Shown here piece after piece: positions 40,118 to 46,933 of a stretch of 64,000 bases of DNA. Made by a program: the position numbers and the translations under genes. The notes below the pieces were generated by a model. It was not told the DNA's origin, did no database searches, and saw nothing but the letters and a program-made list of their open reading frames with translations. This stretch comes from the human T2T-CHM13v2.0 reference genome, Homo sapiens. Position 1 is the first letter of the stretch, and each line of letters opens with the position of its first letter. The stretch is taken from NCBI RefSeq assembly GCF_009914755.1, contig NC_060929.1; one strand, 5' to 3'.

Positions 40118-41176
40118 CTGTAGACTACCAGAAGCCCAACCACATAGTAGCCTGATCATATCCACCAGACCAAACACAATTTTATTGCTAAAGCTGAAGA
40201 ATAAGGCCTTCTGTAGTCATGAAAAGGGATCAGACTCTGTTGTATTTACCTGAAATGGACAATGATGGTCATATACAGTTTTACCCTCAGGCTATAAAAA
40301 CTGTCCTGTCTTCTGTCATAGATAGTATCATCCAATCACATATGGACTGTCACAACATGCCACAGAAAACCACACTGATCCATTACATCAATGACTTCAT
40401 AGCTAGCAGGCAGGATGAACGTGAGATGTCTAGAGCCCTGGAAACCTTAGTAAGACATCTGGACTCAAGATGATGGAAAATTGATTCATTGAAAATTCAG
40501 GGACCTACCACGTAGTAAAGTTTTCAGGGGTGCACTTGTTGCAGAAACATCCCCTCTAAAGTAAAACGCAAATTGCTGCATTTGGCATCCTCAACTACAA
40601 ATAAGGAAGCACAAAGTCCAACAGGCTTCTTTTGGCTCTGGAGGCAACATGTTCCATACCTAGGGATACTTTTCTGGCTGATACAATGCATAACATGGAA
40701 AATTACTAGATTCGAATGGAGCTCAAAGCAGGAAGGGGCTGTGAAGCAGGTCCAGACTGCAGTGCAAGCAGTCTTGTTGCTTGGACCATGTGGCCCAGCA
40801 GCCATTATGATATAAGAAGTGTTACTAGAAAAAGATGCAATGTCAAAATTATGGTAAACCCTAATAGGAGAATTGTAGACCTTTCATGAAATAGCTTCTG
40901 ACATGTTGCTAGGCCCAGGTGCAGATGGAATGCTTGACTTGGGACATTAAGTGACCACGCATTCAGCAGTGCCCATGGTTATATCAGCACATTTTATCAG
41001 ACCTTTCAAGTAATAAAGTTGAACAAGCTCAGCAGCAGTCATTCATAAGAAAGAAATGTTGCACCAGGATGAAAAGCACACTGGAGCAGAAAGGAAGAGT
41101 AAGCTGCAGGAGCAGGTAGCCCAGCCCCTAGTGTCAGATACCATGGTTACAACAGTGTCCCTCCTGTACCTTGCTC

Positions 41177-41435
41177 ATATGGCTATATGCAGGTCCTGTA
41201 TAACCAGCTGAAGAAGGAGAAAAACGTCCAAATTTGTTTGTGGATGGGTCAGCTCAGCATGGGAGCATAAATTCTAAAACGATGGCTACTGTACTACAAC
41301 TACATTCAGGGGTGGTCTTGAAAAATAGTGGAGAGAAAAAAAATGTTTCTAACTGGTGGAGCTGTGAGTGGTTCAGATATACTTTGTATGGAAGGAAAAG
41401 TGACCTGAAGGAAGGAGATATATGTGGACGTGTGG
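41177..41435 (+). repeat. ~259-bp direct repeat, copy 1
   Basis: atatggctatatg...gatatatgtggacgtgtgg; repeated at 42246-42503. Confidence 0.95.
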
Positions 41436-42245
41436 TGATACGGGAGTGCTGGGAAGGGAAGTGCTGGGTAGAGAAACACGGGTCCCTGGCGAGGGCTCCA
41501 TCACCATGGACATAGGTGAGGACAGGCACTCCTACTTTCCCACCCAAATGTTGCATTTTCCAAGACCACCTTGGCCTGCCATGCCCCCATCCTAGGCCTA
41601 TAAAAACCCCAGACCCTAGCAGGCAAACACACAGGTGGCCAGATGTAGAGAGGAGCACATCGGCAGAAGAAGATGCAAGCAGCTGGTCATCGAGAGAATG
41701 TCGAGAGGAGCACATGGGCAGAAGCGCACACCAACAGGCACTGGCACGCTGGCAGGCCATCGACCGGTGGGATGAGGCGGGGTTTGACTGGGGAAGTCGG
41801 AGTACAGCCAGGACTACAGAGGGGCCCAACTCCAGGGGAAAACCATCTCCTTTCTGGCTCCCGCATCAGCTGACAGCTACTTCCACTCAATAAAACTTTA
41901 TACTCATTCTCCAAGCCCACAAGTGATCCAGTTCTTCCAGTACACCAAGGCAAGAATCCGGGATACAGTAAGCCCTCTGTCCTTGCGACAAGGTAGAGGG
42001 TCTAATTGATATGGTTAACACAAGTCATCTACAGATAGCAAAATAAGAGAGCACCCTGTAACACGTGCCCACTAGAGCTTCAGGAGTTGTAAACATTCAC
42101 CCCTAGACACTGCTGTGGGGTTGCAGCCCCACAGCCTGTTCGTCTGTATGTTCCCCTGGAGGCTTGAGTAGCAGGGCACTGAAGAAGCAAGCCACATCTC
42201 CATTGTATGTCATGTGAAGGGGACAAGGGAACCTTTCCCGTTTCA
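41436..42245 (+). mobile_element. ERV1 solo LTR (LTR1 family-like)
   Basis: tgatac...acctttcccgtttca; TATA-like cctataaaa near 41598; aataaa at 41889. Confidence 0.88.
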
Positions 42246-42503
42246 ATATGGCCATATGAGGTCCTGTATAACCAGCTGAAGAAGGAAAACATCCAAATTT
42301 GGTTGTTGGATGGGTCAGCTCAGCATGTGAGTGTAAAATCAAAAATGATGGCTACTGTACTATAACTGCATTCAGGGGTGGTCTTGAAAAATAGCGGAGA
42401 GAAAAAAAAAATGTTTCTAATTGGTGAAGCTACAAGTGGTTCAGATATACTTTGTATGGAAGGAGAAGTGACCTGAAAGAAAGAGATATATGTGGGTGTG
42501 TGG
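42246..42503 (+). repeat. ~258-bp direct repeat, copy 2
   Basis: atatggccatatg...gatatatgtgggtgtgtgg. Confidence 0.95.
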
Positions 42504-43049
42504 TGGGTGTACATGTGTGTGCATGTGTATTTCTGGGTAGTAGTCAATGGCCCGGTCAGCTGATCAACAATAGCCTAGAAATAAAAGGACTGAAAGATCA
42601 GAGATGAGGAGATCTCTAGTAAGGCATGTGCATAAACATATGCGAGTGGGCTCAAATTATGAAACTTTTTGTATAACATGTTAACATCTACTAGAAAGCA
42701 TCCATCATGGGAAAAGCACTGAAGAATCAAGTAGACAAAATGACGTAGCCAGTTGACTTTAGCCAGTCGACTTTAGCCAGTCTTACTTATCAGCCGCTAA
42801 GAAATGGCATGATGGGCATATGAACAAAGGCACTGAGGTGGCAGTATTGGAGTCTGCACAGGGATCTAACATGGACTCTCACCTGTCCAGGCCTATTTAC
42901 CTACTGTCATGCTGAATGTCCAGCCTGCCATGAGTGCTGAGTCCCCATATAGCACTATTTCTGCAGGAGATTAGCCAGTTACTTGGTGGCAACTCGACTA
43001 AACTGGATCTCTTTCATCTTGGAAAAATTGACAGTTTGTCCTTACAGAG

Positions 43050-43455
43050 AAAATGTAAGATGCTCAACATCACTAATTATTAGAGAAAGGCAAATCAAAA
43101 CCACAATGAGATGCCATCCCACACCTGTCCGAATGACTATTACTAAAAAGTCAAAAATTAACAGATGGTGTCAAAGTTGCAGAAAAAAAGGGAATGCTTA
43201 TACATTTCATGTGGGAATGTAAATTAGTTTAGCTATTGTGGAAAGCACTTTGGCAATTTCTCAAAGGACTTAAAACAGAATTACCATTTGACCCAGCAAT
43301 CCCATTACTGGTTATATACCCCAAAGAATTCTAATTATTCTACCATAAGGACACATGCACATGAATGTTCATCGTGGCATGATTCACAATACCAAAGACA
43401 TGGAATCAACCTAAATGCCCATCAATGACAGACTGGATAAAGAAATTGTGGTACA
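43050..43455 (+). mobile_element. L1PA15/16-like 3' fragment, left part
   Basis: RCSTSLIIRERQIKTTMRCHPTP remnant; resumes at 47620. Confidence 0.88.
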
Positions 43456-44036
43456 GGAGAGGACCCACAGACACTCTGAAGGAAGCCAACTGCTCCTGCA
43501 GGACCTGGGAGACCCCCCAAAAAACTGCACAAGTATCCACGGCTGAGAGGCCCATAGATGGTTCACATTACAGGACTCTGTGCAGACAACCCCCAGTACC
43601 AGCCCAGAACTGTGTAGACTCACCAGCTGGCTAGACCCAGAAGAGAGACAACAGTCACTACAGTTTGACTCACAGGAAGCCACACCCACAGGAAAAGGTG
43701 CAGAGTACTACATTAAGGAAACACCACATGGGACAAAAGAATCTGAACAACAGCCTTCAGCCCTAGACCTTCCCTCTGACAGCCTACCCAAATGAGAAAG
43801 AACCAGAAAACCAAACCTGGTAGTATGGCAAAATGAGGCTCTTCAACACCCCAAAAAAATTACACTAGTTCACCAGCAATGGATCCAAACCAAGAAGTCC
43901 CTGACTTTTCTGAAAAAGAATTCAGGTTAGTTATTAAGCGAATCAGGGAGGAACCAAAGAAAGGCAAAGCCCAATGCAAAGAAATCCAAAAAATGATACA
44001 AGAAGTGAAGGGAAAAATATTTAATGAAAGAGGTAG

Positions 44037-44316
44037 CTCAAGGACAAAAAACCAAACACCGTATGTTCTCACTCACAGGTGGGAATTGAACAATGAGAGC
44101 ACATGGACACAGGAAGGGGAACATCACACACAGGGGACTGTTGTGGGGTCGGGGGAAGGGGGGAGGGATAGCATTAGGAGATACACCTAATGCTAAATGA
44201 CAAGTTAATGGGTGCCGCACACCAACATGGCACATGTATACATATGTAACAAACCTGCACATTGTGCACATGTACCCTAAAACTTAAAGTATAATAATAA
44301 TAAAATTTAAAAAAAA
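44037..44316 (+). mobile_element. Young L1PA (PA2-4-like) 3'UTR fragment inside L1PB ORF1
   Basis: caaggacaaaaaaccaaacacc...gggagggatagcattaggag...taccctaaaacttaaagtataataat. Confidence 0.92.
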
Positions 44317-46933
44317 TCAAAAATTCAGGAAACTTTAGACATACTTTTACTTTAGACACACTTTTAGAAATGTGAAATGCTCTGGAAAGTCTCAGCAATA
44401 GAATTGAACAAGTAGAAGAAAGAAATTCAGACCAGAAAGACAAGGTCTTTGAATTAACCCAATCCAACAAAGACAAAGAAAAAAGAATAAGAAAGTATGA
44501 ACAAAGATTCCAAGAAGTCTAGGATTATATTAAATGACCAAACCTAAGAATAATTGGTGTTCCTGAGGAGGGAGAGAATTCTAAAAGCTTGGAAAATATA
44601 TTTGGGGGAATAATCAAGGAAAACTTCCCCAGCCTTGCTAGAGACCTAGACATCCAAATACTAGAAGCACAAAGAACACCTGGGAAATTAATTGCAAAAA
44701 GATCTTCACCTAGGCACATTGTCATCAGGTTATCCAAAATTAAGACAAAGGAAAGAATTTTAAGAGCTGTGAGACAGAAGCACCAGGTAACCTATAAAGA
44801 AAAACCTATCAGATTAACAGCAGATTTCTCAGCTGAAATCCTACAAGCTAGAAGAGATTGGGGCCCTATCTTTAGCCTCCTCAAACAAAACTATTTTCAG
44901 CCAAGAATTTTGTATCCAGCAAAACTAAGCATCATATATGAAGGAAACATACAGTCTTTTTCGAACAAATGCTGAGAGAATTCACCATTACCAAGCCACC
45001 ACTACAGGAACTACTAAAAGGAGCTCTAAATCTTGAAACAAATCCTGGAAACACATAGAAACGGAACCTCTTTAAAGCATGAATCACACAGGACCTACAA
45101 AACAAAAATACAAGTTAAAAAGCAAAAACAAAAAACCAAATTACACCAGCAACAAAAAGCATGATGAATGCAGCAGTACCTCACATTTCATTACTAACAT
45201 GGGAATGTAAATGGCCTAAATGCTCCATTTAAAAGATACAGAACCACAGAATAGGCAAGAACTCACCAACCATCTGCTGTCTTTAGGAGACTCACCTAAC
45301 ACATAAGGACTCACATAAACTTAAAGTAAAGGGGTGGAATAAGACATTTTATGCAAATGGACACCAAAAACAAGCAAGGGTAGCTATTCTTGTATCAGAC
45401 AAAACAAACTTTAAAGCAATAGCAGTTGAAAGAGACAAAGAGGGACATTATATAGTGGTAAAAGGCCTTGTCCAACAGGAATATATCACAATCCTAAACA
45501 TATATGCCTCTAACACTGGAGCTCCCAAATTTATAAACAATTACTAACAGACCTAAGAAACGAGATAGCAACACAATATTAGTTGGGGACTTCAGTACTC
45601 CATTGACAGCACTAGACAGGTCATCAAGACAGCAAGTCAGCAAAGAAACAATGGATTTAAACTATAACTTAGAACAAATGGACTTAACAGATATATACAG
45701 AACATTTCATCCAACAGCCACAGGATACACATTCTATTCAACGGTGCATGGAACTTTCTACAACAGAGACCATATGATAGGCCCTAAAATGAGCCTCAAT
45801 GAATTTAAGAAAATTGAAACTATATCAAGCACTCTCTTAGACCACAGTGGAAGAAAACTGGAAATCTACTCCAAAAGGAACCTTCAAAATTATTCAAATT
45901 CATGGAAATTAAATAACATGCTCCTGAATGAGCAGTGAGTAAAAAATGAAATCAAGATGGAAATTAAAAAATTCTTTGAACTGAAAGACAATAATGACAC
46001 AACCTATCAAAACCTCTGGGATACAGCAGAGGCAGTGCTAAGAGGAAAGTTCATAGCCCTTAATGCCTACATCAAAAAGACTGAAAGAGCACAAACTGAC
46101 ACGTGAACATCACACCTCAAGGAACTAGAGAAACAAGAACAAACCAAACCCAAACCCAGCAGAAGAAAGGAAATAACCAAGATCAGAGCAGAACTAAATG
46201 AAATTGAAACAAAAAAGATGCAAAAGATAAATGAAAAAAAAATCTGGTTCTTTGAAAAGATAAATAAAACTGATAGACCATTAGCAAGATTAAGCAAGAA
46301 AAGAAGAGAGAAAATCCAAATAAACTCACTAAGAAACAAAACAGGAGATATTACAACTGACACCACTGAAATACAAAAGATTATTCAAGTTTACTATGAA
46401 CACGTTTACACACATAAACTAGAAAACCTAGAAGAGATAGATAAATTCCTAAAAAAAATACAACCCTCCTAACTTAAATCAGGAAGAATTAGATAACCTG
46501 AACAGACCAAAAACAAGCAGTGAGACTGAGATGGCAATTTAAAAATTAACAACAACAAAAAAATCCAGGACCAGACAGATTCACAGCAGAATTCTGCCAG
46601 ACATTCAAAGAAGAATTGGTACCAATCCTTTTGTACTATTCCACAAGATAAAAAAGGAACCCTCCCTAATTCATTCTATGAAGTCAGCGTCACCCTAATA
46701 CCAAAACCAGGAAAGGACATAACCAAAAAAGAAAACTACAGACAGATATTTTTGATAAACATAAATGCTAAAATCCTTAATAAAATACTAGCTAACTGAA
46801 TCCAACAACGTATCAAAAAGATAACCCAACATGATCAAGAGGGTTTCATATCAAGGATGCACGGATGGTTTAACATACACAAGTCAGTAAATGTGATACA
46901 CCACATAAACAGAATTAAAAATCACATTATCAT

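What the first reader, a model, noticed from the sequence alone, without database searches (positions are those of the whole stretch)
41177..42503. Solo ERV1 LTR flanked by a ~259-bp direct duplication (giant TSD)
Seen: 41177-41435 ends exactly at the LTR's TG, and a second copy starts exactly after its CA (42246-42503), roughly 85-90% identical by eye. The duplicated DNA is the host ERVL's RNase H region (FVDGSA). Known: gammaretrovirus-like integrases make ~4-bp TSDs. Inference: either a fossil aberrant (uncoupled-end) integration, or a crossover between two independent LTR1 insertions ~259 bp apart on different alleles. Divergence between the copies should date the event.
Basis: partly seen in the sequence, partly recalled or inferred. 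Interest (0 to 1): 0.8.

Follow-up and report, generated by a model that had tools for sequence, protein, structure and literature searches.

The report
Old solo LTR with 259-bp target duplication
A fossil retroviral LTR on human chromosome 5 is flanked by two copies of the same 259 bases of host DNA instead of the usual 4, a rare integration accident already known from younger human endogenous retroviruses and from a mouse-type retrovirus grown in cell culture.

Summary
An intact 810-bp solo LTR (41436-42245, TG...CA) is abutted base for base by two direct copies of host DNA, 41177-41435 and 42246-42503. They differ at 22 of 257 aligned positions, with 4 indel events. Other copies of this LTR family carry 4-bp duplications: 15 of 28 exact and 9 of 28 matching 3 of 4. 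This copy has none (GTGG versus ATAT). Only 1 of 37 loci examined has a long abutting flank repeat. Three paralogues of the old host ERV carry the segment once, in line with its flanks.

[quoted passage not shown] This is known: HERV-K HML-2 has cases of 61-450 bp, and XMRV gave one 273-bp case in 15 sites. It is a new member of a known kind.

One point stays open. The two copies are about half as diverged (7.3% at non-CpG sites) as the LTR's own divergence predicts (about 13%), though not significantly below the youngest of ten 5'/3' LTR pairs (9.2%). Gene conversion, a late insertion or a later rearrangement remain possible. The ERVL/RNase H label for the host could not be confirmed. Primate orthologues would decide the dating.

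The parts
41177..41435 (+). Copy A of the duplicated target (host ERV pol-like DNA), ending at the LTR's first base
41436..42245 (+). Solo LTR, 810 bp, TGATAC...GTTTCA. TATAAAA at 41599 and AATAAA at 41889 on the + strand. Short-head variant of a family with over 1000 candidate copies in this genome
42246..42503 (+). Copy B of the duplicated target, starting right after the LTR's last base
42504..42505 (+). TG of the target identical to the LTR's first two bases. This is the 2-bp ambiguity or microhomology at the left junction, so the duplication is 259 or 261 bp
40237..40863 (+). Host ERV, RT-like stretch (YINDF) upstream of copy A, heavily degraded
   Evidence: foamy-virus Pol best, E 0.15; RVT_1 E 0.038, below cut-off
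42506..43060 (+). Host ERV continuing downstream of copy B, in line with paralogues. It opens with a GT-rich low-complexity stretch

Best explanation
An ERV1-type (gammaretrovirus-like) element integrated into an already old, degraded ERV pol sequence. The two viral DNA ends were joined to opposite target strands about 259 bp apart instead of 4 bp apart. This is an uncoordinated, half-site or wide-stagger integration. Filling in the two single-stranded stretches duplicated the 259-261 bp between the joining sites, which is a giant target-site duplication. Recombination between the two LTRs later removed the interior and left a solo LTR.

Shown: the anatomy, the intact LTR ends, the lack of a 4-bp TSD, the family's normal 4-bp TSD, and the single-copy ancestral arrangement. 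Inferred: the joining mechanism, the provirus-to-solo-LTR step, and the reason the two copies are less diverged than expected. My reading of that last point is gene conversion between the copies, or a late insertion from a divergent source lineage.
For: 1. Both junctions are exact to the base at canonical LTR termini shared with other copies.
2. There is no normal TSD. The flanks read GTGG and ATAT, 1 of 4 matching. Of 28 other independent loci, 15 have exact 4-bp TSDs, 9 match 3 of 4 and 4 match 2 or fewer (partly by eye). Of 8 further loci, 4 are exact, 1 matches 3 of 4 and 3 are unclear.
3. The geometry is that of a TSD: direct repeats, with the left copy ending at the LTR and the right copy starting at it.
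4. Paralogues L033, L040 and L046 of the host ERV carry the segment once, in line with the sequences before copy A and after copy B. No paralogue is closer than 74%, so A and B are copies of each other.
5. Differences are split evenly: 8 derived in A, 8 derived in B and 6 ambiguous.
6. There are precedents. One of 15 XMRV integration sites had a 273-bp duplication (PMC2857682, passages). In HERV-K HML-2, 8 of 622 LTR5_Hs sites have flanking repeats over 10 bp. One of these is 250 bp with a verified empty allele (PMC5488345, sections 11 and 13).
7. Only this locus, 1 of 37 examined, has a long repeat abutting the LTR, which fits a rare accident.
Against: Copy divergence is low for the LTR's apparent age.
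- At non-CpG sites A and B differ at 18 of 247 (7.3%, 95% interval 4.3-11.5%).
- This LTR differs from other copies by 12.1-16.1%. It has about 48 private non-CpG changes in about 700 columns.
- The composition-matched expectation is 32-34 differences against 18 observed (P 0.002-0.005).
- Ten full 5'/3' LTR pairs of related elements range from 9.2% to 15.4%, median 13.1%. A-B is below all ten, though not significantly below the lowest (P 0.43).
- No closer LTR relative exists that could mark a late-active lineage. The best match is 82% over the full length, and 88% and 86% for the end thirds.

The empty site in an outgroup species was not seen, because no primate genomes are on hand.
Confidence: 0.62

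Rival explanations
1. The duplication arose after a normal integration. One version: the LTR went in at the left edge of the segment with a normal 4-bp TSD (ATAT). Later a replication template switch skipped the LTR by using the two TSD copies as microhomology. It copied the segment, then jumped back to the LTR start through the 2-bp TG microhomology. The result looks like a TSD but is not one.
For: The copies are about half as diverged as the LTR's own divergence predicts. There is a 2-bp TG overlap at the left junction. The left junction lies in GT-rich low-complexity DNA. Kahyo et al. also raise 'pseudo-TSD' models for HML-2 (PMC5488345, section 13).
Against: It needs two precisely placed switches in one event. 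A 2-bp overlap arises by chance 1 time in 16. A-B is not significantly below the youngest LTR pair of the family (P 0.43). I know of no precedent for such an event, and my searches listed none.
Confidence: 0.1
2. Two independent insertions of the same LTR family landed 259 bp apart on different alleles. A crossover within the LTRs then produced segment-LTR-segment.
For: The structure is indistinguishable from a single long TSD. No test here excludes it.
Against: It requires two insertions within 259 bp while both were still polymorphic, in a family with roughly 1100-1600 candidate copies in 3.1 Gb. That comes to about one copy per 2-3 Mb. It also requires a crossover between them. No chimeric signal was found: the best permutation P was 0.001-0.009 before correcting for 406 parent pairs. 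Power is low, because only 1 of 28 inner branches of the tree is well supported. Long duplications from single integration events are seen directly in cell culture.
Confidence: 0.05
3. A tandem duplication of the 259-bp segment existed first, and the LTR then happened to insert at its junction.
For: None specific. A related model is discussed for HML-2.
Against: A normal insertion would leave a 4-bp TSD at the LTR, and none is present (GTGG versus ATAT). The insertion would have to hit the exact junction base. The copies would then have to be at least as diverged as the LTR is old, yet they are less diverged.
Confidence: 0.03

Closest known systems
HERV-K (HML-2) LTR5_Hs insertions with unusually long TSDs (Mamedov et al. 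2004, known to me only from the reference list; Kahyo et al. 2017, PMC5488345, abstract and sections 11 and 13 read)
   Same: A solo LTR or provirus with intact ends, directly flanked by 61-450 bp direct repeats of target DNA. The 7p21.2 solo LTR has a 250-bp TSD, almost the same length as here. The events are rare: 8 of 622 sites have repeats over 10 bp.
   Different: Those are young betaretrovirus-like insertions whose copies are 99.6% identical or show 0-3 mismatches. Empty alleles were verified for two of them. This one is an old ERV1-type LTR whose copies have drifted to 91% identity, and no empty site has been seen. Its family's normal TSD is 4 bp.
XMRV (gammaretrovirus) proviral clone C-3 with a 273-bp target duplication (Kim et al. 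2010, PMC2857682, passages read)
   Same: Gammaretrovirus-type integration that normally gives a 4-bp TSD. A single event gave a duplication of about 270 bp, ascribed to uncoordinated joining of the two ends.
   Different: That was an experimental somatic integration, and its left LTR lacked 5 bp including the conserved terminal dinucleotide. Here the left LTR end reads as intact, or at most lacks 2 bp that the target happens to supply.
Aberrant integrations of HIV-1 and RSV with integrase or LTR-end defects (PMC5041404, search listing and start of abstract only; citations within PMC2857682)
   Same: Duplications of host sequence at the integration site when the two ends are not joined in concert.
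   Different: Those were provoked by drugs or mutations, and gave deletions, insertions and inversions as well. Nothing here shows what caused the uncoupling.

Membership tests
Retroviral insertion with unusually long target-site duplication | Direct repeats of host DNA abut both LTR ends with no spacer | tested here: met
Retroviral insertion with unusually long target-site duplication | LTR termini are the family's canonical processed ends (TG...CA) | tested here: met
   The 2-bp TG ambiguity at the left end is noted.
Retroviral insertion with unusually long target-site duplication | The family's normal short TSD is absent at this insertion | tested here: met
   GTGG versus ATAT, 1 of 4 matching. 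In the family, 15 of 28 are exact and 9 of 28 match 3 of 4.
Retroviral insertion with unusually long target-site duplication | The pre-integration (empty) site holds the segment once | not testable with these tools
   No primate genomes or human variants are on hand. Indirect support only: 3 paralogues of the host ERV hold it once, in line with the flanks.
Retroviral insertion with unusually long target-site duplication | The age of the duplication equals the age of the insertion | tested here: inconclusive
   A-B is 7.3% at non-CpG sites against about 13% expected. It is within reach of the youngest LTR pair, 9.2% (P 0.43).
ERV1 (gammaretrovirus-like) LTR, 'LTR1/HUERS-P2' type | 4-bp TSD | tested here: met
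ERV1 (gammaretrovirus-like) LTR, 'LTR1/HUERS-P2' type | Gammaretrovirus-type internal region between related LTRs | tested here: inconclusive
   Elements of about 4.6 kb with a 3-kb interior. Gag_p30 scores E 0.005 and 16.8 bits, below its 27.4-bit cut-off.
ERV1 (gammaretrovirus-like) LTR, 'LTR1/HUERS-P2' type | Match to the curated LTR1 library entry | not testable with these tools
No Dfam or Repbase library is on hand. The LTR1-HUERS-P2 pairing is taken from PMC5753468 (passage).
Host element: ERVL pol, RNase H domain | Significant match of the duplicated segment to RNase H | tested here: not met
   No RNase H family at E <= 10 for either copy. Only the DGSA-type motif is seen by eye.
Host element: ERVL pol, RNase H domain | A pol closer to spumavirus-like (class III) than to other retroviral pols | tested here: inconclusive
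   The best solved-structure match is a foamy-virus Pol, but at E 0.15. RVT_1 scores E 0.038, below its cut-off.

The most novel reading that the evidence does not exclude
The flanking copies really are younger than the LTR. A giant 'TSD' can then arise long after integration, by a template switch that uses the LTR's own 4-bp TSD and a 2-bp terminal microhomology. If so, some published long TSDs that lack a verified empty allele could also be post-integration products.
Probability: 0.1. Interest if true: 0.5.

Novelty: new member of a known kind. Interest (0 to 1): 0.3.

Why it matters
It shows that the rare uncoordinated-end integration seen in cell culture and in young HERV-K copies also left fixed germline fossils in an older gammaretrovirus-like family. 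It is a caution for TSD-based annotation and for solo-LTR dating. The flanking repeats offer a second clock at the same locus, and here that clock disagrees with the LTR's own divergence. The finding has no evident functional consequence: no gene is annotated in the window.

Tried and rejected
- Early misreading: I took a purine-rich stretch upstream of 22 LTR copies for a polypurine tract plus interior sequence. I fetched four 10-kb upstream stretches looking for 5' LTRs and found none. Searches then showed that the homology stops about 43 bp upstream. It is an extra head in a longer LTR variant, and those copies are solo LTRs.
- Chimeric-LTR test: nothing survives correction for 406 parent pairs. 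Power is low because the tree is star-like.
- APOBEC-type inflation of LTR divergence: G/A and C/T differences are nearly balanced, 0.048 versus 0.039-0.046, so this is rejected as the cause of the dating gap.
- Base composition as the cause: AT and GC sites diverge alike in the LTRs, so this is rejected.
- Late-active sister lineage: no LTR copy is closer than 82% over the full length, or 88% and 86% over the end thirds.
- Pfam on the host ERV in three frames on each side gave no retroviral domain at E <= 0.1.
Only 8 further loci were added.

Full report
**Observation**

The window holds an 810-bp LTR at 41436-42245. It starts TGATAC and ends GTTTCA, with TATAAAA at 41599 and AATAAA at 41889 on the + strand.

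Directly before it lies 41177-41435, and directly after it lies 42246-42503. The two stretches are direct repeats. They differ at 22 of 257 aligned positions (18 transitions, 4 transversions), with 7 gap columns in 4 events. Identity is 91.4% at aligned sites and K2P is 0.092. BLAST of the left flank against the right gives 88.9% over 262 columns, E = 9e-95.

After copy B the target continues with TG (42504-42505), which equals the first two LTR bases. The duplication is therefore 259 or 261 bp, and the left junction carries a 2-bp overlap expected by chance 1 time in 16.

**The LTR and its family**

- **Copy number.** A search of the window's own assembly found 1624 first-look candidates, of which 40 were scored. 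All 40 other matches are 77-85% identical.
- **Termini.** The other copies share the same termini. About two thirds of the sampled copies carry an extra 43-bp head that also begins TGATAC. I first misread this as interior sequence and corrected it. The window's copy is the short-head form, as are several solo copies with perfect TSDs.
- **Normal TSD.** Of 28 other independent loci, 15 have exact 4-bp TSDs, 9 match 3 of 4 and 4 match 2 or fewer. I dropped L008, an X/Y duplicate of L006, and counted L017 and L047 as one element (some were read by eye where the script found no head). Of 8 further loci, 4 are exact, 1 matches 3 of 4 and 3 are unclear.
- **This copy.** The window's LTR has GTGG on the left and ATAT on the right, 1 of 4 matching.
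- **Long flank repeats.** A long repeat abutting the LTR occurs only at this locus, 1 of 37 loci. Flanks of 700 bp were compared and of 400 bp. L007 has flank repeats of 66-71% identity that do not abut its LTR.
- **Class.** Related LTRs flank elements of about 4.6 kb with a 3-kb interior. One interior gives a weak Gag_p30 match, E 0.005, below the cut-off. This and the 4-bp TSD fit a gammaretrovirus-like (ERV1) family. A Repbase review pairs the LTR1 families with HUERS-P2 (PMC5753468, passage). No repeat library is on hand, so the name LTR1 for this copy is untested.

**The target**

- **RT upstream of copy A.** One frame reads through a degraded reverse transcriptase (YINDF). RVT_1 scores E 0.038, below its cut-off. 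The best solved-structure match is a foamy-virus Pol at E 0.15.
- **The duplicated segment.** It encodes FVDGSA in copy A and LLDGSA in copy B. No RNase H family matched at E <= 10. The host is clearly an old ERV pol. The labels ERVL and RNase H remain plausible but unconfirmed.
- **Paralogues.** The nearest paralogues are only 65-74% identical over comparable lengths, so A and B are copies of each other and not of separate elements.
- **Ancestral arrangement.** In paralogues L033, L040 and L046 the segment occurs once, in line with the sequence before copy A and after copy B. The ancestral order was therefore before-segment-after, with one copy.
- **Polarity of the differences.** Using three paralogues as outgroups, 8 differences are derived in A, 8 in B and 6 are ambiguous.

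**Mechanism**

Both junctions are exact at processed LTR ends, the repeats are direct and no short TSD is present. This is what is expected if the two viral ends were joined to opposite strands about 259 bp apart and the gaps were then filled.

This has been seen directly. Of 15 XMRV integration sites in cultured cells, 13 had 4-bp duplications, one had 5 bp and one had 273 bp. The authors ascribed the last to uncoordinated integration (PMC2857682, passages).

Germline fossils are in print for HERV-K HML-2. These include flanking repeats of 250 bp (7p21.2, empty allele verified), 111 bp and 450 bp. In all, 8 of 622 LTR5_Hs sites have repeats over 10 bp (PMC5488345, sections 11 and 13). An earlier report by Mamedov et al. 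2004 I know only from that paper's reference list.

My searches listed no such case for an ERV1 fossil. I did not search every phrasing.

**Dating**

- **Tree.** The LTR tree is star-like: 1 of 28 inner branches is well supported. The window's LTR has a median end branch, 0.158 against a median of 0.16.
- **This LTR against other copies.** At non-CpG columns it differs from them by 12.1-16.1%. It has about 48 private changes in about 700 columns.
- **5'/3' LTR pairs.** Ten full pairs of related elements, identical when they integrated, differ by 9.2-15.4%, median 13.1%. Three further pairs with partial LTRs scored higher (19.2-22.3%) and were left out. L066 (15.0%, 3' LTR rearranged) was also left out.
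- **Copies A and B.** They differ at 18 of 247 non-CpG sites, 7.3% (95% interval 4.3-11.5%).
- **Expectation.** The composition-matched expectation is 32-34 differences against 18 observed (P 0.002-0.005).
- **Comparison with the pairs.** A-B is lower than all ten pairs, but not significantly below the lowest (P 0.43). Against the other nine, P ranges from 0.07 down to 0.001.
- **Causes tested and rejected.** Base composition does not explain the gap. Neither does a G-to-A excess. No closer LTR relative marks a late lineage.
- **Indels.** Indel events do not show the deficit: 4 in 257 sites for A-B against a median of 6 in 794 for the LTR. Two of the four lie in A-runs.

I read this as gene conversion between the two close repeats, or as a late insertion from a poorly sampled, divergent source. 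A later origin of the duplication cannot be excluded.

**Rivals**

- **Crossover between two insertions 259 bp apart.** It gives the same structure but needs two very close polymorphic insertions. The chimera test found nothing, at low power.
- **Insertion into a pre-existing tandem repeat.** This is rejected by the missing 4-bp TSD and by copies that are younger, not older, than the LTR.
- **Post-integration template switch.** It would use the TSD and the TG overlap, and it would explain the young copies, but it needs two precise jumps.

**Verdict**

It is a further, older example of a phenomenon already documented, so its interest is modest. The unresolved clock mismatch is the one point worth following up with primate orthologues.

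Noticed in passing
loci L002, L004, L006-L011, L013-L016, L019, L023-L030 (about 43 bp upstream of the aligned LTR start): About two thirds of the sampled LTR copies carry an extra 43-bp head that repeats the LTR's first 26 or so bases. The window's copy and several others lack it. This looks like a head duplication or deletion variant within the family.
   Followed up: partly
loci L052-L067, and L017 with L047: Related LTRs flank short elements of about 4.6 kb with a 3-kb interior that shows only a weak Gag_p30 trace. These are probably non-autonomous gag-only proviruses. Their 5'/3' LTR divergence spans 9-15% at non-CpG sites.
   Followed up: partly
loci L005, L024, L028, L030: Four of 28 other LTR copies lack a recognisable 4-bp TSD (2 or fewer of 4 matching) and have no long flank repeat. 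They may be recombinants or deletion-type aberrant integrations.
   Followed up: no
locus L075: This LTR sits with a normal CTAG TSD inside what looks like a pre-existing tandem repeat of about 20 bp in the target. At first glance it mimics a longer TSD.
   Followed up: partly
loci L006 (C23) and L008 (C24): The same LTR insertion with identical flanks lies on two contigs, with 15 differences in 804 sites (1.9%). It is a recent duplication between the two chromosomes, and I counted it once.
   Followed up: no
window 43100-45000: LINE-1 pieces follow the host ERV. An ORF2-like tail is read by eye near 43100-43500. ORF1 domains (Transposase_22 E 5e-31, Tnp_22_dsRBD, Tnp_22_trimer) lie at about 44400-44970.
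   Followed up: no
window 42490-42540: The right end of the duplicated segment lies in a GT-rich low-complexity stretch that is longer here than in paralogue L040. The left end lies in an AT-rich CATATG-type stretch. Whether such DNA favours single-end joining is unknown.
   Followed up: no
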